From: an uncultured Candidatus Saccharibacteria bacterium
GTDB taxonomy: Bacteria; Patescibacteriota; Minisyncoccia; Sungbacterales; HO2-52-23
Direction of reading: 5' to 3'
Length of the DNA stretch: 51,230 nt
NCBI GenBank assembly: GCA_964501445.1
Contig: CAZCSJ010000003.1
Span: 1-51,230 of the forward strand
The translations under genes and the position numbers were made by a program. This document shows, piece after piece, positions 21,417 to 41,436 of this stretch (positions are counted from its first letter, which is position 1; each line of letters opens with the position of its first letter). A model generated the notes under the pieces. The model was given only the letters and a program-made list of their open reading frames with translations. It searched no databases and was not told where the DNA came from.

Positions 21417-24400
21417 ATGTCTAACGAAAAAACAAAATTTAATCTCCCTCAGGAGGAAGAGAAAATCCTGAAATTCTGGGAAGAACAGAGAGTTTTTGAG
21501 AAAACCCTTGCGCAAAAGAAAGGGCAGAAGACGTTTGTATTTTATGAGGGGCCGCCCACGGCAAACGGCCTTCCCGGGCTTCACCACATGCTCGCGCGGT
21601 CGTTCAAAGACATCATCTGCCGCTACAAAACCATGCGGGGTTTTTATGTCCCGCGCCGCGCGGGTTGGGACACGCACGGGCTTCCGGTGGAAATTGAAGT
21701 GGAGAAACAGCTCGGGTTCAAAACAAAGCAGGATATTGAGCGCTACGGCATCGGGAAGTTCAATCAGAAAGCAAAAGAATCGGTATGGAAGTATAAAAAC
21801 GAGTGGGAGCAATTTACCCGACGGATGGGGTTTTGGATTGATTTACAGAATCCCTATATCACATATGAAACATCATATATAGAAACCCTTTGGTGGATTA
21901 TCAAAGAATTTTGGAAGAAGAAATTGCTCGTCCGCGATTTTAAATCCGTGCCATGGTGTCCGCGCTGTATGACAGGGCTCTCAAGCCACGAAGTGGGGCA
22001 GGGCTACAAGCGCGTGAAAGATGCATCGGTATATGTGAAATTGAAAATTAAGGGAAAAGAGAATGAATATCTTTTGGTGTGGACGACTACTCCATGGACG
22101 CTTCCGGCAAATGTTGCGGTCGTGGTAAATCCCGGAATTGAATACACGAAATTCAAAGTGGGAGACCAGTATCTCTGGTCCAGCCGGCCGATTGCAGGAG
22201 AGTGGGACGCAAAGATCGCGGTCGCGGAGCGGGCATCGGGCAAAACGCTTGTAGGTATTGAGTACGAGCCGCTCTACCGCGTGCCAAGAGAGTATTCTCT
22301 TGGAATTGAGCCGCCCTATCGGGTATTTCCCGCGGATTTCGTGTCCGTGGAGGACGGCACGGGATTTGTGCATATTGCCCCTGCGTTCGGAGAAGATGAT
22401 TTGAATTTGATGAAATCTGTTTATGCACGTCACCCTGAACGCAATGGTCATCCTGAATCCTTCGATGGTCATTCTGATCCGCCAGCTGGCGGAGAAGAAT
22501 CTCAGGATAAACTCCGTGAAGGATCTCGGGATCCTTCGGCCTCGCCTCAGGATGACGATATGCCTCGGGATGATGGACGCCACTTCTTGTATCCCATTCT
22601 CCAAACCGTCAACCCCGACGGCACAATGAAAAGAGGAGTCATCGGCGAAGGGAAGTTCGTCAAGGAGGCGGATAAGGATATTGTCGCAGATTTGAGGAGC
22701 CGCCACCTGCTCTATAAGGAAGAGCAGTATGAACACGAGTATCCGTTTTGCTGGCGGTGTGCGACCCCGCTCCTCTACATGGCGCGCGAGGCGTGGTGGG
22801 TAAAAACGACAAAAGTAAAATCCGCGTTGCTGAAAAACAATGACACCATCAACTGGATCCCGGCGCATGTAGGGCGCGGGAGATTTGGCGAGTTTTTGCG
22901 CGAGAATCGCGACTGGGCGTTTTCCCGCGAGCGGTACTGGGGAACTCCGCTTCCCATTTGGGAGTGCGGGAAGTGTGGAGAACGCGATGTTATCGGATCG
23001 CGCGAGGAACTTGCGGCACGCGCGGCGCATCCCCACAACCGCTACCTCATCATGCGTCACGGCGAGTCGGAAAATAATGTGAAGGGAATTTTAAATTTTT
23101 CCATTGCAAAAAACCATTGGCATTTGACACTTCGCGGGAGAACGCAGGTAGAAAAAGCAGTAAAAGCGCTTCAGAAACAGAGCGTTGATGTGATTCTCAC
23201 TTCTGATTTTCTCCGCGCAAAAGAAACCGCGGATATCATGGGACGCACATTTAAAGTTCCCGTGCGCACTGATGCGCGGCTGCGGGAAGTTGAGGATCGC
23301 GCGTTTGACGGCAAGACCGTGAAAGAGTATGGCGACTGTTTTGTTTTTCACGGCGCACGGTTTCGTTCAGAAATGCTCGGCCTTGAGCCAATGGCGCACC
23401 TCCGCGCGCGCGTGCTTGCCGTAGTTCGCGATTGTGAAAAGAAATATAAAGGAAAGACGATTCTTCTCGTGAGCCATGATTATCCGCTCTGGATGCTTAC
23501 CGCGGGCGCGGAGGGGCTCACGGATGAGGAGACGATTTTGCGCCACAGCGGCAAATGCACAGAACATTTTCTGCCCAATGCCGGAGTGGAGGAGTTGGAG
23601 TATCGCGTGCTCCCGCGCGATGAGACCGGCGCGGTGAATCTCCATAAGCCGTATGTGGATGACGTTACGTTTTCCTGCGAGAAGTGTAAAGGTACGATGC
23701 GCCGCGTGCCGGAAGTGGCGGATGTCTGGTTTGATCCAGGAAGTATGCCGTTTGCCCAGGCACATTTCCCATTCCGGCAAAATCGTCATCCTGAGAGAGC
23801 GAAGCGAACGAAGGATCTTGAGATTCTTCTCCGCCAGTTGTCGGATCAGAATGACAATGGCTATTATTTTCCCGCCGATTACATCTCTGAAGCCGTAGAT
23901 CAAACCCGCGGGTGGTTTTATACGCTCCTTGCCGTTGCGACACTCCTCGGGAAAAAGGCGCCCTATAAAAACGTGATTTCGCTTGGCCATGTGCTGGATA
24001 AAAATGGTCAGAAAATGTCCAAGTCCAAAGGCAATGTCGTGGATCCCAACGAAATGATGGGGAAATACGGCGCAGATGCGCTCCGCTGGTATTTTTACAC
24101 CGTGAACGCCCCGGGAGAGGCGAAACATTTTGACGAAAAAGATGTGGCAGGGAAGCTCCGCGGATTTCTGATGACGCTTTGGAATAGTTTTCTCCTCTTT
24201 GATACTTATGTGAAGAAATCTACAACCTACAACCTACAACCTAAAACCTTGTATATCCTTGACCGCTGGATTCTCACGCGGCTCGATATGCTGGTTGCCG
24301 ATGCAACCAAGAAACTTGATGCGTATGACATCACGGGCGCTGCGCGCGCGATTGAAGAGTTTCTTATTAATGATTTTTCTCAGTGGTATCTGCAGCTTTC

Positions 24401-25112
24401 GCGCCGCCGCCTCCAGCGCCCCCGCTCGCGCGCTGAAAAAGAAGAAGTTACGCGTACCACCGGGGAGGTGCTCTTCACATTGTGTGTGCTTACCGCGCCC
24501 TTTGCGCCATTTTTCGCGGAGGTCATGTACCAGCGTCTTCGCAAAAAAATGGGGCTGAAAGACGCGAGTGTGCATCTCGCGGCGTGGCCAAAACAAGAAT
24601 CAAGAAGCAAGAATCAAGAATTAAAGGTTTTGAAGGATATGGACATGATACGGGCGGCGGTTGCCGAGGGTCTGCGGCTTCGCGCAGAGGCGGGTATTAA
24701 AGTGCGTCAGCCCCTCCGGCGTTTTTCCACCGTACTCCCCAAAACGCATGCGCGCGCGGCAGAACAGATTCTCCGCGAACGGCTCAATGTGAAGGAAGTG
24801 GTGTGTGGCGCAAAAAAATCTGCGTTGGATACAACCATCACGCCGGAGCTCCGTGAAGAAGGAATCGTGCGCGAGGTCATCCGCAACATCCAGGAGATGC
24901 GCCGCGACCTCGGGTTGACACCTCGCACAGAGATCAGGGTGCAAGGAGTGGGGCCTGCCGCGCTCACCGTGCTTTTGATTCGCGAAAAACGGGAGATTCT
25001 AAAAGAGGCAGGCGCGCGCGAGGTGACCGCAGGAGGAAAGAAAGTCTTTGACGCGGAGCGGGAGATTCCCATTGACGGAGAAATTCTTTGGCTTGGCATC
25101 CGGCGCGTGTGA
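21417..25112 (+). CDS. ileS: Isoleucine--tRNA ligase with an embedded histidine-phosphatase-like domain
   Basis: 1231-aa ORF with HIGH region (PPTANGLPGLHHM), CP1 editing domain (WTTTPWTLPAN; GTGFVHIAPAFGEDD), KMSKS (QKMSKSKGN) and Zn-finger CXXC motifs. It also has about 200 extra aa with an RHGE motif and two repeat-derived insertions. Confidence 0.93.
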   Translation: MSNEKTKFNLPQEEEKILKFWEEQRVFEKTLAQKKGQKTFVFYEGPPTANGLPGLHHMLARSFKDIICRYKTMRGFYVPRRAGWDTHGLPVEIEVEKQLGFKTKQDIERYGIGKFNQKAKESVWKYKNEWEQFTRRMGFWIDLQNPYITYETSYIETLWWIIKEFWKKKLLVRDFKSVPWCPRCMTGLSSHEVGQGYKRVKDASVYVKLKIKGKENEYLLVWTTTPWTLPANVAVVVNPGIEYTKFKVGDQYLWSSRPIAGEWDAKIAVAERASGKTLVGIEYEPLYRVPREYSLGIEPPYRVFPADFVSVEDGTGFVHIAPAFGEDDLNLMKSVYARHPERNGHPESFDGHSDPPAGGEESQDKLREGSRDPSASPQDDDMPRDDGRHFLYPILQTVNPDGTMKRGVIGEGKFVKEADKDIVADLRSRHLLYKEEQYEHEYPFCWRCATPLLYMAREAWWVKTTKVKSALLKNNDTINWIPAHVGRGRFGEFLRENRDWAFSRERYWGTPLPIWECGKCGERDVIGSREELAARAAHPHNRYLIMRHGESENNVKGILNFSIAKNHWHLTLRGRTQVEKAVKALQKQSVDVILTSDFLRAKETADIMGRTFKVPVRTDARLREVEDRAFDGKTVKEYGDCFVFHGARFRSEMLGLEPMAHLRARVLAVVRDCEKKYKGKTILLVSHDYPLWMLTAGAEGLTDEETILRHSGKCTEHFLPNAGVEELEYRVLPRDETGAVNLHKPYVDDVTFSCEKCKGTMRRVPEVADVWFDPGSMPFAQAHFPFRQNRHPERAKRTKDLEILLRQLSDQNDNGYYFPADYISEAVDQTRGWFYTLLAVATLLGKKAPYKNVISLGHVLDKNGQKMSKSKGNVVDPNEMMGKYGADALRWYFYTVNAPGEAKHFDEKDVAGKLRGFLMTLWNSFLLFDTYVKKSTTYNLQPKTLYILDRWILTRLDMLVADATKKLDAYDITGAARAIEEFLINDFSQWYLQLSRRRLQRPRSRAEKEEVTRTTGEVLFTLCVLTAPFAPFFAEVMYQRLRKKMGLKDASVHLAAWPKQESRSKNQELKVLKDMDMIRAAVAEGLRLRAEAGIKVRQPLRRFSTVLPKTHARAAEQILRERLNVKEVVCGAKKSALDTTITPELREEGIVREVIRNIQEMRRDLGLTPRTEIRVQGVGPAALTVLLIREKREILKEAGAREVTAGGKKVFDAEREIPIDGEILWLGIRRV
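22429..22579 (+). repeat. Composite nested palindromic insertion (GTCAYCCTGA...TCAGGATGAC family), in frame in ileS
   Basis: There are three left arms (gtcaccctgaac, gtcatcctgaat, gtcattctgatc). The central palindromes are tccgccagctggcgga and gaaggatctcgggatccttc. There are three right arms (ctcaggataa, ctcaggatgac, ctcgggatgatggac). It encodes HPERNGHPESFDGHSDPPAGGEESQDKLREGSRDPSASPQDDDMPRDDG. Confidence 0.8.
23035..23630 (+). other. Histidine phosphatase (phosphoglycerate-mutase-like) domain inserted in IleRS
   Basis: NRYLIMRHGESENNVKG...LTSDFLRAKETA...REVEDRAFDG...ILLVSHDYPL carries the RHG catalytic motif and the downstream SH motif. It is flanked by the IleRS blocks IGSREEL and NLHKPYVDDV. 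Confidence 0.7.
23785..23855 (+). repeat. Palindromic GTCATCCTGAG...TCAGAATGAC element, in frame in ileS
   Basis: gtcatcctgagagagcgaagcgaacgaaggatcttgagattcttctccgccagttgtcggatcagaatgac encodes HPERAKRTKDLEILLRQLSDQND, just before the conserved PADYISEAVDQTRGWFY block. Confidence 0.8.
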
Positions 25113-32347: not shown

Positions 32348-33832
32348 ATGGAGAATGCAAAGAAATTCTACATCACAACCGCGATTGACTATGTGAATGC
32401 GCGGCCGCACATAGGCCACGCGCTTGAAAAGATTCAAGCCGATGTTCTCGCGCGCTATCATCGTCTTAAGGGCGACGATGTCTTTTTTTTGACCGGAACG
32501 GACGAGCACGGCGCAAAAATCGCGCGCGCGGCAGAGGAAGCGGGTGAAAATCCGGAGGAATTTACAGATACCATTTCGCAGAAGTTCCGCGGCCTCAAAG
32601 AGATATTGGATCTCTCATGGGATGATTTTATTCGTACGAGCGACCACGCGCGCCATTGGCCCGGCGCGCAAAAAGTATGGGCGGCACTTTTAGAAAAAGG
32701 AGACCTCTATAAAAAGAATTACCGGGGGCTCTATTGCGTGGGGCATGAAGCATTTGTGACGGAAAAGGATTTGGTGGGCGGCGTGTGCCGCGACCATCAG
32801 AAAGCGCCGGAAGTGATTGAAGAGGAGAACTATTTTTTCCGCCTCTCGAAATACGGGCCCGATATTGAGAAGGCAATCACAAGTGATGAATTGAAAATTG
32901 TCCCCGCAACGCGAAAAAAAGAAATTCTTTCGTTTATCCGTGCGGGGCTTGAGGATGTGAGTTTTTCGCGTCCGCGCAAAGATCTGCCGTGGGGGATTCC
33001 CGTGCCCAATGATTCCGAGCACACGATGTATGTATGGTGCGATGCGCTCACGAGTTACCTTACGGCGCTTGGGTATGGGCAAGACGACTCAAAACTCAAA
33101 ACTCAGAACTCAAAACTGGATTATTGGCCCGCGGATATTCATGTGATAGGGAAAGATATTCTACGTTTCCATGCCGCAATTTGGCCCGGGATGCTCCTTT
33201 CGGCCGGTCTTCCTTTACCGCGTTCCATTTTCGTCCACGGCTTTATCACGGTGGAGGGACAGAAGATGTCAAAAACCATTGGGAATGTGGTTGATCCGGT
33301 GGAGCTTGTGAAAAAGTACGGTACGGATCCGGTGCGCTACTTTTTGCTTCGCGAGATTCCGACCACCGAAGACGGCGATTTCAGCGTGAAAAAATTTGAG
33401 GATCGCTACCACGGCGACCTTGCAAATGGCATCGGGAATTTGGTGTCGCGCGTGGCGACACTGGGCGAGCGCATAAGCCCGATCTCTTTTGATTTCAAAA
33501 AAGATATTGCGAGTGAAATAGATGGCGCGGCGGAGCTTGTATTTAAAGAGTATGAGGCGCATATCACCGAGTTTCGATTGAATGATGCGCTTGCGGATAT
33601 ATGGCAACTCGTTTCGTCTGGTGATAAATATATCAATGAAAAGAAACCGTGGGAGCTAAAAGGCGAGGAATTGCAGCTCGTCCTGGTCAATGTGGGGTAT
33701 CTCATCGGCGTGATTGCCAATCTCTTGGAACCGTTTCTGCCCGAGACCGCGGAGAAAATCCGCGCGCAGGTGCGCTTTGACGACTCAACGATTGTGTTCA
33801 AAAAAGGCGACCCGCTTTTTCCTCGACTATAG
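32348..33832 (+). CDS. metG: Methionine--tRNA ligase (short form)
   Basis: 494-aa ORF with HIGH region (NARPHIGHALE) and KMSKS (QKMSKTIGN). It contains a short stutter insertion (DDSKLKTQNSKLD). Confidence 0.93.
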   Translation: MENAKKFYITTAIDYVNARPHIGHALEKIQADVLARYHRLKGDDVFFLTGTDEHGAKIARAAEEAGENPEEFTDTISQKFRGLKEILDLSWDDFIRTSDHARHWPGAQKVWAALLEKGDLYKKNYRGLYCVGHEAFVTEKDLVGGVCRDHQKAPEVIEEENYFFRLSKYGPDIEKAITSDELKIVPATRKKEILSFIRAGLEDVSFSRPRKDLPWGIPVPNDSEHTMYVWCDALTSYLTALGYGQDDSKLKTQNSKLDYWPADIHVIGKDILRFHAAIWPGMLLSAGLPLPRSIFVHGFITVEGQKMSKTIGNVVDPVELVKKYGTDPVRYFLLREIPTTEDGDFSVKKFEDRYHGDLANGIGNLVSRVATLGERISPISFDFKKDIASEIDGAAELVFKEYEAHITEFRLNDALADIWQLVSSGDKYINEKKPWELKGEELQLVLVNVGYLIGVIANLLEPFLPETAEKIRAQVRFDDSTIVFKKGDPLFPRL

Positions 33833-33835
33833 AAA

Positions 33836-33855
33836 AAACGGGCGGCTGCCCGTTT
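33836..33855 (+). terminator. Rho-independent terminator-like hairpin after metG
   Basis: aaacgggc-ggct-gcccgttt lies directly after the metG stop. It has only a short T run. Confidence 0.55.
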
Positions 33856-33988
33856 AGCGGCGGTTGGTGGCAAGGACTACGAATATAAGATAGATCACGA
33901 AAGATATTGTAATTCCCATCACACCCACTTGTTGATAACAAATAATAAGAACTCCAATAAAAGTGAGTAAGCTTATCCCGACCGGCAT
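33854..33988 (-). CDS. Possible 44-aa two-TM micro-protein
   Basis: Hand translation gives MPVGISLLTFIGVLIICYQQVGVMGITISFVIYLIFVVLATNRR. It is below the track cutoff and is supported only by hydrophobic periodicity and intergenic position. Confidence 0.25.
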   Translation of the reverse strand: MPVGISLLTFIGVLIICYQQVGVMGITISFVIYLIFVVLATNRR

Positions 33989-34026
33989 TGACATGTGTAC
34001 CACCTCTCTCACTATCAGCTTTGATT

Positions 34027-34923
34027 ATGGCACAGCGTTTTTTTGATGTCCACGCCCATACGCAGTTTGCCGCATACCAAGACGACGCGGATGCGGTGAT
34101 TCAGCGCGCGCTGGATGCGGGCGTATGGATGATACAAGTCGGCACCCAGCGCGATACATCAGCATCCGCGATTGCGATCGCGGAAAAATATCCTGAGGGC
34201 GTGTATGCGACTGTAGGTCTCCACCCGATTCATACGGAAAAGTCGTATCACGACGAACAGGAATTAGGAATTATGAATAATGAATTAGGGGAACCCTCCT
34301 TCGCTGAAGCTTCGGAAGGGTTAAAAGGCTTCACAAGCCGCGGCGAGGAATTTGATTATGAGTACTATAAAAAATTAGCACTCCATCCGAAAGTGGTGGG
34401 GATAGGCGAGTGCGGGCTTGATTACTACAGAATTACGAATGATGAATTACGAATTAAGGAAAAACAGAAGCGAGCATTTATACAGCAAATCGAGCTTGCT
34501 CGTGAAGTAGAAAAACCCCTTATGATTCATTGCAGGGAAGCCTTTAGTGATTTGATAGAGGTCCTTAATTCATACTTCTTAACTCATAATTCCAGCCGTT
34601 CGCCAGGCGTCATCCACTTCTTCTCCGGCACAAAAGAAGACGCCCGCGCGCTCTTGGATCTCGGATTTTCATTTTCCTTCGGCGGTGTGATTACCTTCAC
34701 GCACGATTATGATGAAGTGGTGCGCTATATTCCGCTTGACCGCATTGTGCTAGAAACCGATGCTCCGTATGTTACGCCCGTGCCGCACCGCGGCAAGCGA
34801 AACGAGCCCGCGTATGTGGTGGAGGTAGCGAAGAAGATGGCAGAAGTGAAGCAGATTTCTATGGACGAAGTTGCCTCAAAAACGTTTGGGAATGCAAAGA
34901 TAATTTTTGGATTGACTGCTTAG
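34027..34923 (+). CDS. TatD family metal-dependent hydrolase (DNase)
   Basis: MAQRFFDVHAHTQF...GECGLDYY...PLMIHCREA...VLETDAPYVTP are canonical TatD motifs. The track start TTG 33988 is less likely. It contains two stutter insertions. Confidence 0.88.
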   Translation: MAQRFFDVHAHTQFAAYQDDADAVIQRALDAGVWMIQVGTQRDTSASAIAIAEKYPEGVYATVGLHPIHTEKSYHDEQELGIMNNELGEPSFAEASEGLKGFTSRGEEFDYEYYKKLALHPKVVGIGECGLDYYRITNDELRIKEKQKRAFIQQIELAREVEKPLMIHCREAFSDLIEVLNSYFLTHNSSRSPGVIHFFSGTKEDARALLDLGFSFSFGGVITFTHDYDEVVRYIPLDRIVLETDAPYVTPVPHRGKRNEPAYVVEVAKKMAEVKQISMDEVASKTFGNAKIIFGLTA

Positions 34924-34940
34924 TAAGCGATTGATATCAT

Positions 34941-35162
34941 TTGAATATGACTATTGCTATCAAAAGGAAAATTAAGAAAGATTTAAGGGAGGTATCTCAA
35001 CGTATGGGCATCACGGAACATGATGTTGTGGATCGCGCACTTCTGCTGTATTTGGAGAGTGTAAAAAAGATTACTGAAGTGCAAAGAGAGTTTGAGGCAT
35101 GGGATGCATTGAGCGATGAGTCATTCTCGCTTTTATCCAAGCGTACACGGTTTGGTTTATGA
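34941..35162 (+). CDS. Ribbon-helix-helix antitoxin (MazE/CopG-like)
   Basis: 73-aa ORF (ATG at 34947 is possible). It overlaps the downstream MazF-like gene by 4 nt. Confidence 0.65.
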   Translation: MNMTIAIKRKIKKDLREVSQRMGITEHDVVDRALLLYLESVKKITEVQREFEAWDALSDESFSLLSKRTRFGL

Positions 35163-35485
35163 AAAAAGGAGAGGTTTGGCTTGTTGATATTCCCATTGCA
35201 AACGGGCATGAGCAGGGAGGATCGCGCCCCGTTATTGTTATCGCCGATGCACGGGCGAGTGTCGCGATAGTTATTCCTTGCACCTCTAACCTGCAAGCGC
35301 TCCGATTCCCATTTACTCTGCAGGTGAGCCCGTCTCGCGTAAATGGATTCCACACCGCATCCATAGTTCTCGTGCTTCAATTGCGAGCGATTGACAAGAG
35401 ACGCTTGCATAAAAAAGTAGGCATTCTTGAGAAGAAAACGCTCAAAGAGATTGATGGGATGGTTAAAAACCTTCTCGATATTTGA
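35159..35485 (+). CDS. mazF: Type II toxin, MazF/PemK family endoribonuclease
   Basis: 108-aa ORF with MKKGEVWLVDIPIANGHEQGGSRPVIVIA...IPCTSN...AIDKRRL, the typical MazF/PemK pattern. Confidence 0.85.
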   Translation: MKKGEVWLVDIPIANGHEQGGSRPVIVIADARASVAIVIPCTSNLQALRFPFTLQVSPSRVNGFHTASIVLVLQLRAIDKRRLHKKVGILEKKTLKEIDGMVKNLLDI

Positions 35486-38400
35486 TTGTGCGCTATCTCC
35501 CGCAACAATTTGAGAAAAAGTGGCAAAAGAAGTGGCTCAAAGAGAAAATCTATGAGCCCGATTTGGCGCGATCCGCAAGCCGGCGGAAACCTTTCTATAA
35601 CCTCATGATGTTTCCGTATCCGTCTGCGGAGGGGCTTCATGTGGGTAATATGTATGCGTTTACGGGTGCGGACATATATGGGAGATTCAAGCGGATGCAG
35701 GGATATGATGTGTTTGAGCCGATTGGGCTTGATGGGTTTGGGATTCATTCGGAGAATTATGCGATAAAAGTGGGCAAGCACCCTGCGGAGCAGGCGAAAA
35801 TTTCAGAGAAGAATTTCTACCGGCAATTGCAGATGCTTGGTAACGGCTTTGCGTGGAATGAACGGCTCGAAACCTACGACCCTGAATACTATAAGTGGAC
35901 CCAATGGATTTTTATCCAGATGTTCAAGCGCGGGCTCGCGTATCGCAAAAAGGCCGCGGTGAATTGGTGTCCTTCGTGTAAAACCGTGCTCGCGGATGAG
36001 CAAGTCATCCAAAAGAAGCAAGAAGCAAGAATCAAGAATCAAGGCAAAACGGTTAGTGTTTGCGAACGGTGCGAGACAGAGGTGGTAAAAAAAGAATTAG
36101 AGCAATGGTTTCTCAGGATTACGAATTATGCCGACCGCCTGCTTAAGAATCTTGAGAAGATTGACTGGTCAGAGAGAATCAAAATCGCGCAGAGAAATTG
36201 GATTGGAAAGTCGGAGGGAGCGAAAATTGAATTCCCGCTCACCTTGAATAAGGATACCAATTTTCTGATATTGCACGGTTATACCGGTCGCGCAGATAAG
36301 AATTTTATCCCTTGGTTAAAAAGAGAACTTGAATCGCGAGGATTTGAGGTGCACGCACCCCAATTACCGAATACAGATTTACCGAAGGAGTCGGAACAGG
36401 TGGGATATGTCCTCAAAAAATGTCGCATGGATGAGCACACGATTGTGATAGGTCATAGTTTGGGTGGCGCGGTTGCGATGAAGGCATTACAGAAGATTAA
36501 CCGTCCTATTGCGGGGCTCGTTCTTGTCGCTCCTACGGTAGAGCCACGATTCCGTACTGGAGCTGAAAGACCGTTCTGGAAAACCTTCTCTTTGGATTAT
36601 GATTACAAAAAAATTAAAAAACTTAGCGGATTCAGAGCGATCATTTCGGATACCCTCGAAAAGGACAAACGAGGCGCTTACTTGGAGTATTTATCGCAAA
36701 GAATATCAGCGTCTTTGTATGAGACCAAGGCAGGAAGAGTGCATTTTACTAGCAACAAAGAACCTTTTGTATTGGAGCATTTAAGTGCACCAATAACCGT
36801 TTTCACGACCCGACCCGATACGATTTTCGGAGCGACATACCTTGTGTTAAGCCCTGAATATCCGTTCGTGGAAAATCACAAATCACAAATCACAAATCAC
36901 AAAGAGGCAGAAGCGTATATCAAGAAAGCTGAATCAAAAACCGAAGAGGAGCGGATAACGGAAGGACGAGAGAAAACAGGCGTTGAACTCAAAGGTATAA
37001 AAGCGATTAATCCCGCAAATGGTGAGGAAATTTCGATATGGGTTGCGGATTATGTTTTAGGCGGCGTGGGAACGGGCGCAATTATGGCAGTACCCGCGCA
37101 CGACGAGCGGGATTTTGAGTTTGCACAAAAATATAATTTGCCGATTCGGATGGTCGTCTGCCCGCACTATCCAGAACCGACATGTCCAGTACTTGATAAT
37201 GCGTATATAGGCGTGGGGCATCTTGTAGATTCCGGAAAATTCTCCGGCATGGATTCCGAGAGCGCAAAATGGGAAATTACGAAATTCGTGGGTGGCAAGA
37301 AAACTTCGCAGTACCGCCTGCGCGATTGGCTTATTTCGCGTCAACGTTATTGGGGTCCCCCGATCCCCATGATCTATTGCGAGAAATGCGGCTGGCAGCC
37401 GGTGCCGGAAAAGGATTTGCCGGTGAAATTGCCGTATGTGAAAAACTTCCGTCCGACCGGAACCGAGAAATCCCCGCTCGCTACCGTAGAGAAATTTTGG
37501 AAAGTCAGATGCCCGAAATGCGGGTCTGCGGCGCGGAGAGAGACCGATGTATCGGATACATTTTTGGATTCTGCGTGGTACTACCTCGGATATCTCCTCG
37601 GAACGAAAAGCGAAAAGCGCAAAGCGAAAAACTACAACGCAAAACTTAAAACCCTTCCTATTGAGAAATCCATACTGAAGCGATGGCTACCGGTTGATAT
37701 GTATATTGGAGGGGCAGAACATGCAGTTTTGCATTTGCTCTACGTGCGTTTCCTCGCAATGGCGCTTCATGATATTGGAGTTCTGAATTTTCCCGCCCAA
37801 GGCGGGTCTGCCTCGGGCAGAGAGGAGCCGTTCAAGCATTTCCGCGCGCATGGTCTTATCATCAAAGACGGCGCGAAAATGTCAAAATCAAAAGGGAATA
37901 TCGTAAATCCCGATGACTACATTCGCGCCTACGGCGCGGACGCGCTCCGGATGTATCTTATGTTTTTGGGACCGTTTGAGCAGGGGGGCGATTTTCGCGA
38001 TTCGGGAATGAAGGGGATTACGCGGTTTTTGGAGCGCGCGTGGAAGTTTGCGAATCAGGTCATCCTGAGTGCGAAGCCCGAAGGATCTCGAGATTCTTCG
38101 CCTACGGCTCAGAATGACAACTTGAAGAGGTTAATTCATAAAACAATTAAAAAAGTCACGGAAGATATTGAGGGGCTTCAATATAATACCGCGGTTTCGG
38201 CGTTGATGGTTTTACTGAATGAATTTGAAGAGCATCGGGATAGCGTAATGTATGAGGATGTAAAAATATTTCTGAAACTTCTCGCCCCTTTTGCTCCCCA
38301 CCTCACGGAAGAATTATGGCAAAAATTGCAAAAGCAAAAGAAGTTTGCGTCTATTCATACGGAGCCGTGGCCAAAATATAATCTCAAATTATTGAAAGAA

Positions 38401-38586
38401 GATACTTTTGAACTCGTGATACAGATAAACGGCAAAGTCCGCGGACGGGCGACATTAGCCGTCGGCGCATCCGAGGCAGAAGCAAAGAAAGCCGCGCTCG
38501 CACTGCCGCAAGTAAAACAATATATCTCCGGTGAGCCAAAGAAAGTAATCTTTGTCCCCAACAAGCTCATCAATTTTGTGGTGTGA
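35482..38586 (+). CDS. leuS: Leucine--tRNA ligase with an embedded alpha/beta serine-hydrolase-like domain
   Basis: 1034-aa ORF with HIGH-region variant (PYPSAEGLHVGNMY), CP1 editing domain (FTTRPDTIFGATYLVLSPE; AIMAVPAHDERDFEFA) and KMSKS (AKMSKSKGN). It also has a ~180-aa insertion carrying GHSLGG and several repeat-derived insertions. The start codon (TTG 35482 or GTG 35488) is uncertain. Confidence 0.93.
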   Translation: MIVRYLPQQFEKKWQKKWLKEKIYEPDLARSASRRKPFYNLMMFPYPSAEGLHVGNMYAFTGADIYGRFKRMQGYDVFEPIGLDGFGIHSENYAIKVGKHPAEQAKISEKNFYRQLQMLGNGFAWNERLETYDPEYYKWTQWIFIQMFKRGLAYRKKAAVNWCPSCKTVLADEQVIQKKQEARIKNQGKTVSVCERCETEVVKKELEQWFLRITNYADRLLKNLEKIDWSERIKIAQRNWIGKSEGAKIEFPLTLNKDTNFLILHGYTGRADKNFIPWLKRELESRGFEVHAPQLPNTDLPKESEQVGYVLKKCRMDEHTIVIGHSLGGAVAMKALQKINRPIAGLVLVAPTVEPRFRTGAERPFWKTFSLDYDYKKIKKLSGFRAIISDTLEKDKRGAYLEYLSQRISASLYETKAGRVHFTSNKEPFVLEHLSAPITVFTTRPDTIFGATYLVLSPEYPFVENHKSQITNHKEAEAYIKKAESKTEEERITEGREKTGVELKGIKAINPANGEEISIWVADYVLGGVGTGAIMAVPAHDERDFEFAQKYNLPIRMVVCPHYPEPTCPVLDNAYIGVGHLVDSGKFSGMDSESAKWEITKFVGGKKTSQYRLRDWLISRQRYWGPPIPMIYCEKCGWQPVPEKDLPVKLPYVKNFRPTGTEKSPLATVEKFWKVRCPKCGSAARRETDVSDTFLDSAWYYLGYLLGTKSEKRKAKNYNAKLKTLPIEKSILKRWLPVDMYIGGAEHAVLHLLYVRFLAMALHDIGVLNFPAQGGSASGREEPFKHFRAHGLIIKDGAKMSKSKGNIVNPDDYIRAYGADALRMYLMFLGPFEQGGDFRDSGMKGITRFLERAWKFANQVILSAKPEGSRDSSPTAQNDNLKRLIHKTIKKVTEDIEGLQYNTAVSALMVLLNEFEEHRDSVMYEDVKIFLKLLAPFAPHLTEELWQKLQKQKKFASIHTEPWPKYNLKLLKEDTFELVIQINGKVRGRATLAVGASEAEAKKAALALPQVKQYISGEPKKVIFVPNKLINFVV
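36235..36785 (+). other. Alpha/beta serine-hydrolase-like (YdeN/RBBP9-type) domain inserted in LeuRS
   Basis: NFLILHGYTGRADKNFIPWLKRELESRGFEVHAPQLPNTDLP...HTIVIGHSLGGAVAMKAL...GLVLVAP carries the nucleophile elbow G-H-S-L-G-G. It lies between the LeuRS blocks NWIGKSEGAKIEF and VFTTRPDT. Confidence 0.7.
38059..38118 (+). repeat. Palindromic GTCATCCTGAG...CTCAGAATGAC element, in frame in leuS
   Basis: gtcatcctgagtgcgaagcccgaaggatctcgagattcttcgcctacggctcagaatgac is 60 nt (20 codons) and encodes VILSAKPEGSRDSSPTAQND. Confidence 0.8.
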
Positions 38587-38608
38587 TTTTGTATTTTTTG
38601 CGGGTGCG

Positions 38609-38617
38609 TGGTATAGA
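38609..38617 (+). promoter_or_regulatory. Candidate extended -10 promoter (TGgTATAGA) of the wHTH gene
   Basis: It lies 90 nt upstream of ATG 38707. It is homologous in sequence and spacing to 16905-16913. Confidence 0.45.
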
Positions 38618-38706
38618 AATAGTTAGTTCTTTGGTCGTCGAGAGTTCCGCAATGGGCGGAACAGACCACCACAATATTGTCAGAAGACGAGGAAAGGAGA
38701 ATCGTC

Positions 38707-39264
38707 ATGATACAGCATGTCAAGGCGAATCTGTATAAGGAGCAGGATGCCCAGCTTACGAAAATCAAGCGGCAGCTCCGACAAAAGTCGGGCTATCCGT
38801 TCAACCCGCAGAAGTTGAAACTCGTGCTTCAGGCGCTCATAGAGGGGCGGTTTGACGGCATCAAGTCACCGGATGATTTCTTCTGCGCGGTGTTCCGCCG
38901 GAGCGAGCAGATCACTATGTGTAAACGAGTTATAATCAATTCTCACCTGCTGCGAATCGATGCATTTCAGCAGAAGGTCTGGGTGGACGATCAGCTTGTT
39001 GAACTGACCCCTACAGAGCTTCAGTTGCTGAACTACTTCCTGCAACAGCACGATCAGATACTGACCTGCGACGAACTAACCGAGGCAATCTGGAATCTCG
39101 CTCACACGGACACCCAGACATTGAAGGTGCACTTGTGCCGAATGCGTCGCAAGCTCTCCCGGTACCTTCCTGATTGTCCACGTCTCATTGGGTCCATACA
39201 CGGTGTGGGGTACCGATTCAACCTGTCCGGTCAGGACCGGCCTATCGCGGTCTCCGTCAAATGA
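38707..39264 (+). CDS. Orphan OmpR/PhoB-type winged-helix DNA-binding protein with a DGR-target-like N-terminal module
   Basis: The likely start is ATG 38707 (MIQHVKANLY...), preceded by ggaaaggagaatcgtc as at 17004. The C-terminus LTPTELQLLNYFLQQHDQILTCDELTEAIW...TLKVHLCRMRRKL...IGSIHGVGYRF is a trans_reg_C-type wHTH. There is no receiver domain. Confidence 0.75.
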   Translation: MIQHVKANLYKEQDAQLTKIKRQLRQKSGYPFNPQKLKLVLQALIEGRFDGIKSPDDFFCAVFRRSEQITMCKRVIINSHLLRIDAFQQKVWVDDQLVELTPTELQLLNYFLQQHDQILTCDELTEAIWNLAHTDTQTLKVHLCRMRRKLSRYLPDCPRLIGSIHGVGYRFNLSGQDRPIAVSVK

Positions 39265-39298
39265 TGAAACGGCTTTTCCCGATATGCCATATAACAGG

Positions 39299-39331
39299 AA
39301 CCTCGTACAGTTTTGTACGAGGTTTTCTTTT
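39299..39331 (+). terminator. Rho-independent terminator after the wHTH gene
   Basis: aacctcgtaca-gttt-tgtacgaggtt is followed by ttcttttg. Confidence 0.75.
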
Positions 39332-39594
39332 GCGAGACGGAATATAAATAGGTATAGTTATATACGATAGGTAATGCTTTTAAGCGAGCCTATCGCACGC
39401 GAGACCAGGTTAACGCCCTTCGACAAGCTCAGGGAATATAAAGTAGATACTCTAAGCGAGCCTCATATGTCTTCGAGACCATTATGGAGGCGCGCGGCTT
39501 GGATCCCGCGAAGCGGGACGCGCGCCGAATAGTGAGCGATGCCGCCCGCAGGAGGCGGCGAGCGTGTCGAGAAGGTATATGAGCGAACGACAAT

Positions 39595-41436
39595 ATGTGT
39601 GGAATTATCGGCTACATCGGCAAACAAAAGGCAGTTCCCATCGTGCTTGATGGGCTGAATCAGATGGAGTATCGGGGGTATGATTCCAGCGGCATTGCAG
39701 TACTTGAAGGCGATGGGTCAGTGAAAACCGAGAAGGCAGTCGGTCGTATTGTGAACCTTGAAGAAAAGTTGTTAGGGAATCATTTGAATGGCGTGGTTGC
39801 AGTGGGGCATTCCCGGTGGGCCACTCATGGGGGTGTGACGGAAGCGAACGCCCATCCGCATTCGGACTGCAAAGGCGCAATTCATCTGGTCCATAACGGC
39901 ATTGTAGAGAACTATAAGGAACTCAAAGCAGAACTCATAAAAAAAGGACACACCTTTACATCAGAAACAGATACCGAGGTGCTGGCGCATCTTATTGAAG
40001 AAGCAAGAATTAAGAAGCAAGAATTAAGCATTGAAGACGCAGTGCGTTTCGCGCTTAAACGCGTCCGCGGAACCTACGGCCTTGCGATTATTGACAAACG
40101 CGAGCCGCAAAAACTCATTGCCGCGCGGAATTTCAGCCCTCTGCTTTTGGGCATCGGCGAGGGCGAGTATTTTGTGGCATCCGACGCATCAGCAGTTTTG
40201 CGGCACACGCGGCACGTCGTGTATCTTGACGACGGCGAGATGGCAGTCATCACCCCGGATGGCTACCGGATTTTTGACCTTGGCAGGAATCTTCGCGACA
40301 AGCCGTCCCAGCAGATTGAATGGTCGGTGGAACAGGCGCAAAAAGGCGGGTATTCGCATTTTATGTTAAAAGAAATTTTTGAGGAGCCGGAAGCGATTGA
40401 AAATACGCTCCGCGGACGAACGATTCCTGCAGAGGGGCGAGTGCGTCTGGGGGGGCTCACCGATGTGATGGACCAACTCAAATCCACAAAGCGGATTTTG
40501 ATTTCTGCGTGCGGCACGGCGTATCTTGCGGGGCGCGTCGGCGAGTACATGCTTGAGGAGTATGCCGGGATTCCGGTGGAGGTGGACCTCGCATCAGAAT
40601 TTCGCTATCGCAAGCCCGTATTCCGCGAGGGCGATCTCTTTCTTGCGATCTCGCAGTCGGGCGAGACCGCCGATACTCTTGCCGCAATTCAGGAGGCGAA
40701 AGAAAAAGGAGTGCCGGCATTCGGAATTGTGAATGTCGTGGGCTCCACAGTTGCGCGCACCACCGACGCGGGGGTGTATCAGCACATCGGGCCGGAGATC
40801 GGTGTTGCGTCTACGAAAGCGTTTGCGTCGCAGGTTGCGATTTTAGCGCTTTGGACCGTGCTTCTCGGCCGCCAGCGCGATATGTCGGTTGTGACCGGCA
40901 AGCGAATTCTCACGGAACTCAATCGGATTCCTGATTTGATGCGTCGCGTAGTCGCGCAAAATAATTCGGTGAAGGCGCTCGCCGAGAAATATAAACATTG
41001 CAATAATTTCTTTTTTCTTGGCCGCAAATACAATTTGCCGGTTGCATCGGAGGGCGCATTGAAATTGAAGGAAGTGTCGTATGTGCACGCGGAGGGGTAT
41101 GGCGCAGGCGAGTTGAAACACGGGCCCATTGCGATGATTGATGAAAAACTTCCTTCGGTTGTCATCGCACCTCAGGACTCGGTGTATGAAAAAATGCTTT
41201 CAAATATTGAGGAAATCCGCGCGCGCAAGGGCCCGGTGATCGCGATTGCGACCGAGGGAGATAAAAAAATCGCGGAACTCGCGGACGACGTGGTGTATGT
41301 TCCCAAAACCCTTGAGATGTTAACTCCCCTTTTGGCAGTAGTACCCCTCCAGATGTTTGCCTACCACTTTGGCGTGGGCAAGGGATATGACGTAGATAAA
41401 CCGAGAAACTTGGCGAAGAGCGTAACGGTAGAATAG
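39595..41436 (+). CDS. glmS: Glutamine--fructose-6-phosphate aminotransferase (isomerizing)
   Basis: 613-aa ORF with N-terminal MCGIIGYIG (Ntn Cys), two SIS domains and a C-terminal ...DKPRNLAKSVTVE. Confidence 0.95.
   Translation: MCGIIGYIGKQKAVPIVLDGLNQMEYRGYDSSGIAVLEGDGSVKTEKAVGRIVNLEEKLLGNHLNGVVAVGHSRWATHGGVTEANAHPHSDCKGAIHLVHNGIVENYKELKAELIKKGHTFTSETDTEVLAHLIEEARIKKQELSIEDAVRFALKRVRGTYGLAIIDKREPQKLIAARNFSPLLLGIGEGEYFVASDASAVLRHTRHVVYLDDGEMAVITPDGYRIFDLGRNLRDKPSQQIEWSVEQAQKGGYSHFMLKEIFEEPEAIENTLRGRTIPAEGRVRLGGLTDVMDQLKSTKRILISACGTAYLAGRVGEYMLEEYAGIPVEVDLASEFRYRKPVFREGDLFLAISQSGETADTLAAIQEAKEKGVPAFGIVNVVGSTVARTTDAGVYQHIGPEIGVASTKAFASQVAILALWTVLLGRQRDMSVVTGKRILTELNRIPDLMRRVVAQNNSVKALAEKYKHCNNFFFLGRKYNLPVASEGALKLKEVSYVHAEGYGAGELKHGPIAMIDEKLPSVVIAPQDSVYEKMLSNIEEIRARKGPVIAIATEGDKKIAELADDVVYVPKTLEMLTPLLAVVPLQMFAYHFGVGKGYDVDKPRNLAKSVTVE

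What the first reader, a model, noticed from the sequence alone, without database searches (positions are those of the whole stretch)
36235..36785. Leucyl-tRNA synthetase carries an in-frame alpha/beta serine-hydrolase-like domain next to CP1
Seen in sequence:
- Between the LeuRS blocks RNWIGKSEGAKIEF and ITVFTTRPDTIFGATY the ORF contains about 180 extra aa.
- This segment looks like a YdeN/RBBP9-type alpha/beta hydrolase: NFLILHGYTGRADKNFIPWLKRELESRGFEVHAPQLPN...TIVIGHSLGGAVAMKAL...GLVLVAP, including a G-x-S-x-G nucleophile elbow.
- The normal CP1 editing domain (TTRPDT ... AVPAHDERD) follows intact.

Established knowledge: aminoacyl-tRNA is an ester, and serine hydrolases of this fold are esterases.

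Inference:
- This could be a second, non-canonical deacylase or editing module, or another esterase activity recruited to LeuRS.
- Together with the IleRS insertion it suggests a lineage-specific habit of grafting hydrolase domains into class Ia synthetases.
- I could not identify the Asp and His of a catalytic triad by eye.
Basis: partly seen in the sequence, partly recalled or inferred. Interest (0 to 1): 0.7.

Follow-up and report, generated by a model that had tools for sequence, protein, structure and literature searches.

The report
Serine hydrolase nested inside leucyl-tRNA synthetase
The leucyl-tRNA synthetase of this ultra-small (Patescibacteria/CPR) bacterium carries a complete, apparently active serine-hydrolase enzyme spliced into a hairpin of its proofreading domain. 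The design is shared by many related bacteria, I found no paper describing it, and its job is still unknown.

Summary
The LeuRS ORF (35482-38586, 1034 aa) holds a 186-aa insert (aa 252-437, nt 36235-36792). It replaces the turn of the first beta-hairpin of the CP1 editing domain (T. thermophilus LeuRS 237-240).

The insert is a YdeN/RBBP9-type minimal alpha/beta hydrolase:
- Pfam PF06821 scores above its cut-off.
- The AF2 model has pLDDT 94, with Foldseek TM 0.81 to YdeN and 0.80 to RBBP9.

By alignment the triad is complete: Ser326, His421 and Glu393 (Asp390 is an alternative acid). In 159 embedded copies Ser is kept in 100%, His in 98% and Asp/Glu in 96%.

It is not an artefact. 76 of the 119 closest database LeuRS carry the domain, nearly all at the same hairpin. 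Oral Saccharibacteria carry it at the homologous hairpin of IleRS. CP1 editing motifs remain intact.

Function is unproven. I favour a tethered aminoacyl-ester hydrolase, because RBBP9 acts on free-amine hydrophobic aminoacyl groups. A "lodger" enzyme with no link to LeuRS is nearly as likely. The clade also occurs free-standing and inside ValRS, AlaRS, Fmt, TsaD, SecA and UvrA, and CPR synthetases also host NUDIX, His-phosphatase and LMW-PTP domains.

I found no publication on it.

The parts
35482..38586 (+). Leucyl-tRNA synthetase ORF (1034 aa from TTG 35482). The true start is probably GTG 35488, giving MRYLP...
   Evidence: ORF. (TIGR00396, 890 bits against cut-off 548). (the N-terminus aligns from residue 1 of orthologue P0105).
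35638..35649 (+). HIGH-type signature, reading HVGN (aa 53-56).
   Evidence: The clade consensus is GLHVGNMY.
36208..36234 (+). First beta-strand of CP1 (aa 243-251, ...GAKIEF), the N-terminal arm of the hairpin that hosts the insert.
   Evidence: strand E243-251, pLDDT about 88-90. (aligns to T. thermophilus LeuRS up to V236).
36235..36792 (+). Inserted YdeN/RBBP9-type alpha/beta serine-hydrolase domain (aa 252-437).
   Evidence: PF06821; YdeN and RBBP9 sequence matches. (AF2 pLDDT 94, pTM 0.91). (Foldseek 1uxo TM 0.81, 7oex TM 0.80).
36274..36279 (+). His265-Gly266 (LILHG), the presumed oxyanion-hole 'HG' motif after the first strand.
   Evidence: H in 92% and G in 94% of 159 embedded copies. 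Assigning it to the oxyanion hole rests on established knowledge of the alpha/beta-hydrolase fold.
36451..36465 (+). Nucleophile elbow G-H-S-L-G (aa 324-328). Ser326 (36457-36459) is the catalytic nucleophile.
   Evidence: Ser in 159/159. (aligns with RBBP9 Ser75). (strand 69-74, then helix 76-87 in insert numbering).
36649..36660 (+). Acid loop D390-T-L-E393. Glu393 (36658-36660) aligns with the family's catalytic Asp. Asp390 (36649-36651) is a clade-specific alternative acid.
   Evidence: column 393: D 120 + E 32 of 159; column 390: D 130 of 159. (RBBP9 D138 maps to E393). (E393 nearly always co-occurs with D390).
36742..36744 (+). His421 (GRVHF), the catalytic histidine.
   Evidence: His in 156/159. 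(aligns with RBBP9 His165).
36793..37287 (+). Remainder of the CP1 editing domain (aa 438 to about 602). It holds the T-rich motif TTRPDT (36805-36822) and AVPAHDERD (37087-37113).
   Evidence: PF13603, 199 bits, aa 429-602. (motifs intact).
37876..37890 (+). KMSKS loop (aa 799-803).

Best explanation
Shown: the gene is the genome's housekeeping bacterial-type LeuRS, with intact synthetic and CP1 editing motifs. The 4-12-residue turn of the first CP1 beta-hairpin is replaced by a complete 186-aa minimal alpha/beta hydrolase of the YdeN/RBBP9 (PF06821) family. The turn lies 7 residues upstream of the T-rich editing motif. The inserted domain keeps the HG oxyanion motif, the GHSLG nucleophile elbow (Ser326), His421 and an acid (Glu393, with Asp390 beside it). 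It is attached by short, confidently modelled connections.

Inferred: it works as a third, autonomous catalytic site, a Ser-His-Glu acyl-enzyme hydrolase tethered to the editing domain. Its most likely substrates are aminoacyl esters or anhydrides with a free alpha-amine that the synthetase itself makes or handles. These would be mischarged or surplus aminoacyl-tRNA, or released aminoacyl-adenylate. It would then be an auxiliary deacylase or clearing activity acting by proximity. It would not replace CP1.

Confidence in what the domain is stands at about 0.95. The confidence given below is for the functional part.
For: Identity and fold.

Triad:
- It maps on RBBP9 S75/D138/H165.
- It is conserved in 159 embedded copies: Ser 100%, His 98%, Asp/Glu 96%.
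- This holds even though the insert is only 42% identical on average, against 63-72% for the LeuRS core. That indicates purifying selection on catalysis.

Real and widespread:
- 76 of the 119 nearest LeuRS carry the domain, about 95% of them between NWIGKS and TTRPDT.
- 25 GTDB species genomes carry it, all Patescibacteria.
- It is the orthologous housekeeping gene, by synteny with an insert-less LeuRS.

Coupling to the synthetase:
- In a search unbiased for host, 50 of the 56 host proteins of 450 aa or more among the top 150 representative clusters are LeuRS.
- Several divergent insert subfamilies occupy the same hairpin.
- LeuRS also carries the domain at 3 or more other sites.
- Oral Saccharibacteria carry a 48%-identical copy at the homologous CP1 hairpin of IleRS, just before WTTTPWT.
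- Most other hosts bind tRNA or acyl-adenylates: ValRS, AlaRS, Fmt, TsaD.

Chemistry: RBBP9 is the only characterised family member. It forms acyl-enzymes with single Leu/Ile, Met, Phe, Tyr and Trp residues and needs a free alpha-amine (PMC8866121).

Attachment: the linkers are short and have pLDDT of about 90 in the full-length model, whose pTM is 0.77.
Against: - CP1 editing motifs are equally intact in LeuRS with the insert (76/77) and without it (42/43). No editing deficit needs compensating.
- RBBP9's substrate-pocket residues (S76, Y99, L103, E108, F140, L141) are not conserved. The segment after the acid is polar and charged (EKDKRG).
- The same clade also occurs as a genuine free-standing gene (P0157).
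- It also sits inside SecA and UvrA, and in ValRS at a non-CP1 site.
- 43 of 120 close LeuRS do without it.
- Insert and core distances correlate poorly (r=0.19).
- CPR synthetases also host NUDIX, His-phosphatase and LMW-PTP domains, and a curated IleRS class holds a GNAT domain (NCBIfam NF040702). This points to a general tolerance for guest enzymes.
- No coordinates were available. Triad geometry and the orientation of the active site relative to the CP1 pocket or the tRNA path were not measured.
Confidence: 0.4

Rival explanations
1. Autonomous 'lodger' enzyme. The hydrolase does a general housekeeping job unrelated to leucylation, on an unknown ester, thioester or amide. It is carried inside LeuRS only because large, essential, constitutively expressed class I synthetases have permissive surface loops. 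Reduced CPR genomes would benefit from fusing small enzymes to such carriers. There is no substrate or mechanistic coupling.
For: - The same clade is found free-standing (P0157; L028-L030).
- It is found inside unrelated hosts: SecA, UvrA, TsaD, Fmt, AlaRS, and ValRS at a non-CP1 site.
- Broader family members are fused to NUDIX, thioredoxin and adenylate kinase.
- CPR LeuRS and IleRS also host NUDIX, His_Phos_1 and LMWPc domains; NCBIfam also curates an IleRS class holding a GNAT domain (NF040702).
- Presence is patchy among close LeuRS.
- The insert evolves faster than the core and is weakly correlated with it.
- CP1 is intact.
- In the GTDB scan each assembly gave one locus only.
Against: - There is a strong preference for LeuRS: 50 of the 56 long hosts (450 aa or more) among the top 150 clusters of an unbiased search.
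- The same hairpin is filled by several divergent subfamilies.
- There are additional sites within LeuRS.
- The jump to IleRS landed on the homologous CP1 hairpin.
- Internal insertion into an essential enzyme is riskier than a terminal fusion.
Confidence: 0.35
2. Amino-acid supply. This would be an RBBP9-like serine aminopeptidase that clips N-terminal hydrophobic residues (Leu or Ile) from scavenged peptides. Fusing it to LeuRS or IleRS would feed the free amino acid to the synthetase in an organism that cannot make amino acids.
For: - RBBP9 is an aminopeptidase that traps Leu/Ile, Met, Phe, Tyr and Trp (PMC8866121).
- The synthetase hosts all handle aliphatic amino acids: Leu, Ile, Val and Ala, with Met through Fmt.
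- Coupling by mere proximity would tolerate the several insertion sites seen in LeuRS.
- Patescibacteria lack amino-acid biosynthesis (established knowledge).
Against: - RBBP9's hydrophobic cage and amine-binding Glu108 are not conserved.
- Free amino acids diffuse, so channelling gives little obvious gain.
- SecA, UvrA and TsaD as hosts do not fit.
Confidence: 0.1
3. Catalytically dead scaffold. The fold would be kept only as a structural, tRNA-binding or regulatory module (a pseudoenzyme).
For: The canonical Asp is replaced by Glu in the window's subfamily, and the 'DPxVP' acid loop is remodelled into a helix start.
Against: Ser is kept in 100%, His in 98%, the acid in 96% and the HG motif in 92-94% of 159 copies that are only about 42% identical overall. 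Glu is a known triad acid in alpha/beta hydrolases (established knowledge).
Confidence: 0.03
4. Assembly chimera, pseudogene or mobile (intein-like) element.
For: Two short metagenome contigs with the same architecture carry frameshifts or an in-frame stop (L001, L002).
Against: - The window has an uninterrupted ORF.
- Composition is uniform.
- There are no flanking repeats.
- I saw no intein-like residues at the insert junctions (by eye only).
- The same architecture appears in more than 100 independent assemblies.
Confidence: 0.01

Closest known systems
YdeN (B. subtilis, PDB 1UXO) and the PF06821 'Ser_hydrolase' family
   Same: The insert has the same minimal alpha/beta-hydrolase fold of about 190 aa with no cap (Foldseek TM 0.81). 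The sequence aligns end to end (E=4e-11). It has the HG motif, a GxSxG elbow, an acid after beta7 and a His after beta8.
   Different: YdeN is a free-standing protein of unknown substrate. Here the domain is nested in a beta-hairpin of LeuRS. The acid is Glu (with an adjacent clade-specific Asp390) and the DPxVP loop is remodelled. Clade-specific motifs are EQV in place of the family Trp, D390, and a C-terminal EPxxL.
Human RBBP9 (PDB 2QS9, 7OEX), a serine aminopeptidase
   Same: The fold matches (TM 0.80) and the triad positions align: S75/D138/H165 with S326/E393/H421. RBBP9 acts on single hydrophobic aminoacyl groups with a free alpha-amine. That is chemically the acyl part of aminoacyl-tRNA.
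   Different: Sequence identity is about 22%. RBBP9's pocket residues S76, Y99, L103, E108, F140 and L141 are not conserved. Specificity therefore cannot be transferred, and the insert is not an orthologue.
CP1 editing domain of class Ia synthetases (LeuRS, IleRS, ValRS)
   Same: It is a precedent for a hydrolytic domain inserted into the synthetase body that deacylates aminoacyl-tRNA. The new domain is nested inside CP1 itself, 7 residues before the T-rich motif.
   Different: The fold and chemistry are unrelated. CP1 has no Ser-His-acid triad and forms no acyl-enzyme. CP1 is near-universal in these synthetases, whereas this insert was found only in Patescibacteria and is patchy there.
Free-standing trans-editing factors (AlaX, YbaK/ProX, DTD)
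   Same: The evolutionary pattern is the same: one hydrolase clade exists both embedded in synthetases and as a stand-alone protein (P0157).
   Different: The folds differ. The deacylase activity of the present clade has not been shown.
NCBIfam NF040702 'isoleucine--tRNA ligase, N-acetyltransferase domain-containing'
   Same: It is a curated example of an unrelated enzyme domain carried inside a class Ia synthetase (listed).
   Different: The guest (GNAT) and the host (IleRS) differ. No curated model exists for LeuRS plus Ser_hydrolase. Pipelines name such proteins 'alpha/beta fold hydrolase' or 'leucyl-tRNA synthetase' inconsistently.

Membership tests
PF06821 Ser_hydrolase (YdeN/RBBP9) family | Profile-HMM score above the curated gathering threshold | tested here: met
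   34.7 bits in the full protein and 38.5 bits for the isolated insert, against a cut-off of 22. The Pfam match covers profile positions 1-92, but phmmer to YdeN covers 7-169 of 192.
PF06821 Ser_hydrolase (YdeN/RBBP9) family | Minimal cap-less alpha/beta-hydrolase fold of about 180-190 aa | tested here: met
   AF2 pLDDT 94 and pTM 0.91. Foldseek best hits are 1uxo (TM 0.81) and RBBP9 7oex/2qs9/9fcr (TM 0.78-0.80).
PF06821 Ser_hydrolase (YdeN/RBBP9) family | Ser nucleophile in a GxSxG elbow between a strand and a helix | tested here: met
   GHS326LG lies between strand 69-74 and helix 76-87 in insert numbering. Ser is present in 159/159 embedded copies.
PF06821 Ser_hydrolase (YdeN/RBBP9) family | Catalytic His after the last strand | tested here: met
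   His421 aligns with RBBP9 H165 and is present in 156/159 copies.
PF06821 Ser_hydrolase (YdeN/RBBP9) family | Catalytic Asp after beta7 (SxxD-P-x-V-P) | tested here: inconclusive
   The aligned residue is Glu393. The column is D or E in 152/159 copies, and most exceptions are register shifts. Asp390 is adjacent. The loop is remodelled, and the geometry could not be measured because no coordinates were returned.
PF06821 Ser_hydrolase (YdeN/RBBP9) family | Hydrolytic activity | not testable with these tools
   This needs an activity-based probe or enzyme assays.
RBBP9-type aromatic/hydrophobic aminopeptidase (specific function) | Substrate cage Y99/L103/F140/L141 and amine anchor E108/S76 | tested here: not met
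   These residues map to T352/R356/D395/K396 and G360/L327. They are not conserved in the embedded clade. The alignment is uncertain in the loop region.
Bacterial-type leucyl-tRNA synthetase (TIGR00396) | Equivalog HMM above cut-off, HIGH-like and KMSKS motifs, and CP1 inserted after the Zn-1 region | tested here: met
   890 bits against a cut-off of 548. HVGN at aa 53 and KMSKS at aa 799. PF13603 scores 199 bits. The gene is syntenic with an orthologous LeuRS.
Bacterial-type leucyl-tRNA synthetase (TIGR00396) | Intact CP1 editing-site motifs (T-rich TTRPDT, GTGxxM, HDxRD) | tested here: met
   All are present in the window. The T-rich and HDxRD motifs are present in 76/77 insert-bearing and 42-43/43 insert-less relatives, and GTGxxM in 74/77 and 42/43.
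Known aminoacyl-tRNA editing or deacylase domains (CP1, INS/YbaK, N2/AlaX, DTD) | Homology or fold shared with one of these families | tested here: not met
   All Pfam, NCBIfam, PDB and Foldseek matches of the insert are alpha/beta hydrolases.
Known aminoacyl-tRNA editing or deacylase domains (CP1, INS/YbaK, N2/AlaX, DTD) | Deacylation of mischarged tRNA | not testable with these tools
   This needs a biochemical assay.
Intein or mobile insertion element | Splicing-junction residues, an endonuclease, or target-site or terminal repeats | tested here: not met
   I saw no intein-like residues at the insert junctions (by eye only). Only short, chance-level repeats are present. Composition is like the host gene.

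The most novel reading that the evidence does not exclude
The embedded Ser-His-Glu hydrolase is a previously unrecognised type of aminoacyl-tRNA (or aminoacyl-adenylate) proofreading or clearing domain, unrelated in fold to all known editing modules. Patescibacteria would have grafted it onto the CP1 hairpin of LeuRS and IleRS. The free-standing copies would be the corresponding trans-acting factors.
Probability: 0.25. Interest if true: 0.85.

Novelty: new variant of a known kind. Interest (0 to 1): 0.62.

Why it matters
Aminoacyl-tRNA synthetases are among the best-studied enzymes, and their accessory domains usually point to new quality-control or moonlighting biology.

Here a third, apparently active catalytic centre sits inside the editing domain of LeuRS across much of the Patescibacteria. 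It also sits inside IleRS of human oral Saccharibacteria, some of which can be cultured and genetically manipulated.

- If the domain acts on aminoacyl esters, it would be a new class of editing or clearing activity.
- If it is a 'lodger', it documents an unusual genome-streamlining strategy, in which essential synthetases serve as carriers for NUDIX, phosphatase and hydrolase enzymes.

There is also a practical consequence. Annotation pipelines currently name these LeuRS genes 'alpha/beta fold hydrolase' or truncate them.

Tried and rejected
- Exact-sequence look-up of the window LeuRS and of P0001 found no record. The database copy P0027 is an N-terminally truncated gene call.
- Contigs L001 and L002 have the same architecture but carry frameshifts or an in-frame stop. 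I did not use them as evidence of intact genes.
- A search for flanking direct or inverted repeats gave only chance-level matches. I saw no intein-like junction residues by eye. A mobile element or intein was rejected.
- Mapping RBBP9's substrate pocket onto the insert showed the residues are not conserved. Specificity therefore cannot be transferred by homology.
- I tested whether the insert compensates for a degenerate CP1. It does not: motifs are equally intact with and without it.
- I tested for simple vertical co-inheritance by correlating insert and core identities. The correlation is weak (r=0.19), but the core identity range is narrow, so this is not decisive.
- The full-length AF2 model (pLDDT 86, pTM 0.77) gave no coordinates. 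Triad geometry and domain orientation could not be measured.
- Six literature searches on LeuRS/aaRS with hydrolase, NUDIX, CPR, Patescibacteria or PF06821, plus a term search within one paper on domain insertion (PMC13114784), found no description of this architecture. The library does not hold most subscription-journal papers.
- A whole-genome test for a complementary distribution, meaning one copy per genome, could not be run.
Full report
**1. Observation**

The window contains one uninterrupted ORF, 35482-38586 (+), of 1034 aa. It is a bacterial-type leucyl-tRNA synthetase:
- TIGR00396 scores 890 bits against a curated cut-off of 548.
- Pfam finds the tRNA-synt_1, LeuRS editing-domain (PF13603, 199 bits) and Anticodon_1 domains.

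RNWIGKSEGAKIEF starts at aa 238 and ITVFTTRPDT at aa 438. AVPAHDERD is at aa 536, KMSKS at aa 799, and the HIGH-type motif HVGN at aa 53. The extra segment is aa 252-437 (nt 36235-36792).

Base composition across it is within the range of the flanking genes. It has no meaningful flanking repeats.

**2. What the insert is**

- On its own the segment matches PF06821 'Ser_hydrolase' at 38.5 bits (cut-off 22). It also matches several generic alpha/beta-hydrolase families above their cut-offs.
- Against PDB sequences it aligns end to end with B. subtilis YdeN (1uxo, E=4e-11, residues 7-169 of 192). It also aligns with human RBBP9 (E=2e-6).
- An AlphaFold2 model built on 27 sequences is highly confident (pLDDT 94, pTM 0.91). 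It has the strand and helix order of a minimal cap-less alpha/beta hydrolase.
- Foldseek against the PDB returns YdeN (TM 0.81) and RBBP9 (TM 0.78-0.80) far ahead of other hydrolases.

**3. Catalytic residues**

I aligned the insert with RBBP9. I entered the RBBP9 sequence from memory. It agrees with all nine residue numbers I checked: six are stated in the retrieved passages of PMC8866121, and D138, H165 and L103 I recalled from the RBBP9 literature. The triad maps as follows:

| RBBP9 | Window LeuRS |
|---|---|
| S75 | Ser326 |
| D138 | Glu393 |
| H165 | His421 |

I then examined 159 full-length copies embedded in proteins of 450 aa or more, drawn from the searches below:
- Ser is present in 159/159.
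- His is present in 156/159.
- The acid column is Asp in 120 and Glu in 32. Most of the 7 exceptions are one-residue register shifts.
- The HG motif after the first strand is 92-94% conserved.
- Asp390, three residues before Glu393, is specific to the embedded clade (82%, against 23% in ordinary free-standing members). It accompanies Glu393 in 31 of 32 cases.

Which acid residue serves, Glu393 or Asp390, remains uncertain. The tools returned no coordinates for measuring the geometry.

RBBP9's substrate cage and amine anchor (S76, Y99, L103, E108, F140, L141) are not conserved.

**4. Where it sits in LeuRS**

Against T. thermophilus LeuRS (1h3n, 2byt) the flanks align up to V236 and from V241. 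The 186-aa domain therefore replaces the 4-residue turn (237-240) of the first beta-hairpin of the CP1 editing domain. That turn is seven residues upstream of the T-rich editing motif (T247-T252).

A syntenic orthologue without the insert has a loop of about 12 residues at this point. It is P0105 (808 aa) from the complete genome CP066690.1, with the same MetRS-TatD-LeuRS-GlmS order as the window. This also shows that the insert-bearing gene is the housekeeping LeuRS and not a paralogue.

In a full-length AF2 model (pLDDT 86, pTM 0.77) the insert keeps pLDDT of 90-97, and both short connections score about 90.

**5. Distribution**

- A full-length LeuRS search returned 119 closest database proteins other than the window's own. 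Of these, 76 carry the domain (median length 1065 aa, against 847 aa without it). Nearly all have it between NWIGKS and TTRPDT.
- A scan of one genome per GTDB species found 25 loci, all in Patescibacteria: Kerfeld-, Komeili- and Doudnabacteria, Paceibacterota, Saccharimonadales and Nanosynbacter.
- In ten of these loci the host is LeuRS.
- In the fifteen oral Saccharibacteria loci the host is IleRS (TIGR00392, 708 bits against a cut-off of 621).
  - There a 48%-identical copy sits at the homologous CP1 hairpin, between VYVKFxL and LLAWTTTPWTLP. The window's own IleRS has the short turn KGKENE at that point.
  - Those IleRS reach 1759 aa. They also contain NUDIX, LMW-PTP and a second alpha/beta hydrolase.
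- An exhaustive HMMER search of 1.84 billion cluster representatives gave 1489 hits at E<=1e-3, 256 at E<=1e-10 and 33 at E<=1e-30.
  - Among the best 150, 54 are LeuRS or LeuRS fragments and 80 are free-standing proteins of about 180-190 aa.
  - Single examples lie inside AlaRS, ValRS, UvrA, SecA, Fmt and TsaD.
- The copies inside non-LeuRS hosts have LeuRS-embedded copies as their nearest relatives. So do some free-standing proteins (P0157, P0161, P0172, P0173, P0182; 46-57% identity). Terminal fusions to NUDIX, adenylate kinase and thioredoxin belong instead to the ordinary free-standing branch.
- P0157 is a genuine stand-alone gene with its own start and stop in three contigs.

**6. Evolutionary behaviour**

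- Among 81 full-length LeuRS with the canonical insert, mean pairwise identity is 0.42 in the insert. It is 0.72 in the N-terminal part and 0.63 in the C-terminal part.
- Insert and core identities correlate weakly (r=0.19).
- The inserts fall into at least six subfamilies that do not track core similarity. One resembles ordinary free-standing members.
- Within LeuRS the domain also occupies other sites: after HDxRD, between RDW..SRQRYWG and KMSKS, and after KMSKS. L004 carries two copies.
- CP1 editing motifs are equally intact with the insert (76/77) and without it (42/43).

**7. Interpretation**

Shown: this is a real, widespread, catalytically equipped YdeN/RBBP9-type serine hydrolase nested in the CP1 hairpin of a fully equipped LeuRS.

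Inferred: its function. Evidence for coupling to the synthetase:
- LeuRS is the overwhelmingly preferred host in a search unbiased for host.
- The same hairpin has been filled repeatedly by divergent subfamilies.
- The IleRS copy landed on the homologous hairpin.
- Most other hosts handle tRNA or acyl-adenylates.
- RBBP9, the only characterised family member, forms acyl-enzymes with single Leu/Ile, Met, Phe, Tyr and Trp residues and requires a free alpha-amine (PMC8866121). That is the chemistry of an aminoacyl ester.

Evidence against a dedicated editing role:
- CP1 is intact.
- The RBBP9 pocket is not conserved.
- The domain uses non-CP1 sites in LeuRS and ValRS.
- SecA and UvrA also host it.
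- Free-standing copies exist.
- Presence among close relatives is patchy.
- CPR class I synthetases also carry NUDIX, His-phosphatase and LMW-PTP guests; the window's IleRS holds His_Phos_1 at aa 544-706. NCBIfam also curates an IleRS class that holds a GNAT domain (NF040702).

I rank the readings as follows:

| Reading | Probability |
|---|---|
| Tethered aminoacyl-ester/anhydride hydrolase acting by proximity | about 0.4 |
| Functionally uncoupled 'lodger' enzyme | about 0.35 |
| Aminopeptidase that supplies Leu or Ile | about 0.1 |
| Pseudoenzyme | about 0.03 |
| Artefact | about 0.01 |

**8. Comparison with what is known, and novelty**

- The guest is a member of PF06821 by HMM, fold and triad.
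- It is not an RBBP9 orthologue in specificity.
- It is not related to any known editing-domain fold.
- The host is an ordinary bacterial LeuRS.
- The nearest curated precedent for an unrelated enzyme inside a class Ia synthetase is NCBIfam NF040702 (IleRS with a GNAT domain).

Public pipelines have seen these proteins but name them inconsistently: 'alpha/beta fold hydrolase', 'leucyl-tRNA synthetase/predicted alpha/beta hydrolase family esterase', or 'hypothetical protein'.

Six literature searches and a term search within one paper on domain insertion found no description of the architecture. The held library does not include most subscription-journal papers.

I class it as a new variant of a known kind: a synthetase with an accessory inserted domain. 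Its interest is moderately high because the function is open and is directly testable.

Noticed in passing
window 21417-25112 (+): The IleRS (TIGR00392, 827 bits) holds an inserted histidine-phosphatase (His_Phos_1) domain at aa 544-706, with RHG at aa 547. It sits after the WECGKCG zinc knuckle. There is also a low-complexity acidic/Pro-rich stretch at about aa 340-395. The CP1 hairpin of this IleRS is short and has no hydrolase.
   Followed up: partly
window 35159-35485 (+): A PemK/MazF-type toxin ORF (108 aa, PF02452, 85 bits) ends 4 nt inside the TTG start of LeuRS, or 2 nt before the GTG start. I did not look for an antitoxin partner.
   Followed up: partly
window 35482-35649: The real LeuRS start is probably GTG 35488, since MRYLP matches the orthologue's MRYDP. 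The database gene call for this protein (P0027, 981 aa) starts 53 aa too late and loses the HIGH-type motif. That motif reads HVGN here and throughout the clade.
   Followed up: partly
L009-L019, L021-L023, L027 (oral Saccharibacteria / Nanosynbacter genomes): These IleRS genes are 1200-1760 aa long and hold up to four guest enzyme domains. Going in order, they are LMW-PTP, NUDIX, a LeuRS-type Ser_hydrolase in the first CP1 hairpin, and a second alpha/beta hydrolase after WTTTPWT.
   Followed up: partly
L003:1576-5073, L007:4634-8617, and many of P0028-P0146: Many Patescibacteria LeuRS carry one or two NUDIX domains in addition to the hydrolase. They sit either before the hydrolase or after the HDERD motif of CP1. 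NUDIX plus Ser_hydrolase also occurs as a free two-domain protein (P0247, P0248, P0018).
   Followed up: partly
P0162, P0183, P0198, P0181, P0217, P0226: The LeuRS-type hydrolase clade is also found inside AlaRS, ValRS (after DTWFSS, not in CP1), UvrA, SecA, methionyl-tRNA formyltransferase and TsaD.
   Followed up: partly
window 37072-37098 (LeuRS aa 531-539): In the full-length AF2 model the conserved editing-site motif GTGAIMAVP has pLDDT below 50, while its surroundings are confident. This is unexplained. It could be an alignment artefact from the many inserts, or real conformational ambiguity next to the guest domain.
   Followed up: no
L001 (Logan ERR3661022) and L002 (JGI 3300065532): Two short metagenome contigs encode LeuRS with the same insert but carry frameshifts (L001) or an in-frame stop inside the hydrolase plus a missing Zn-1 region (L002). 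These may be assembly errors or decaying copies.
   Followed up: partly
window 6242-9406 (+): A 1054-aa ORF with no Pfam match at E<=1e-3.
   Followed up: no
window 32348-41436 versus L031 (CP066690.1): The gene order MetRS-TatD-LeuRS-GlmS is conserved with a complete Candidatus Sungiibacteriota genome. The window additionally has the MazF-like ORF, and a Trans_reg_C ORF (38677-39264) flanking LeuRS.
   Followed up: partly
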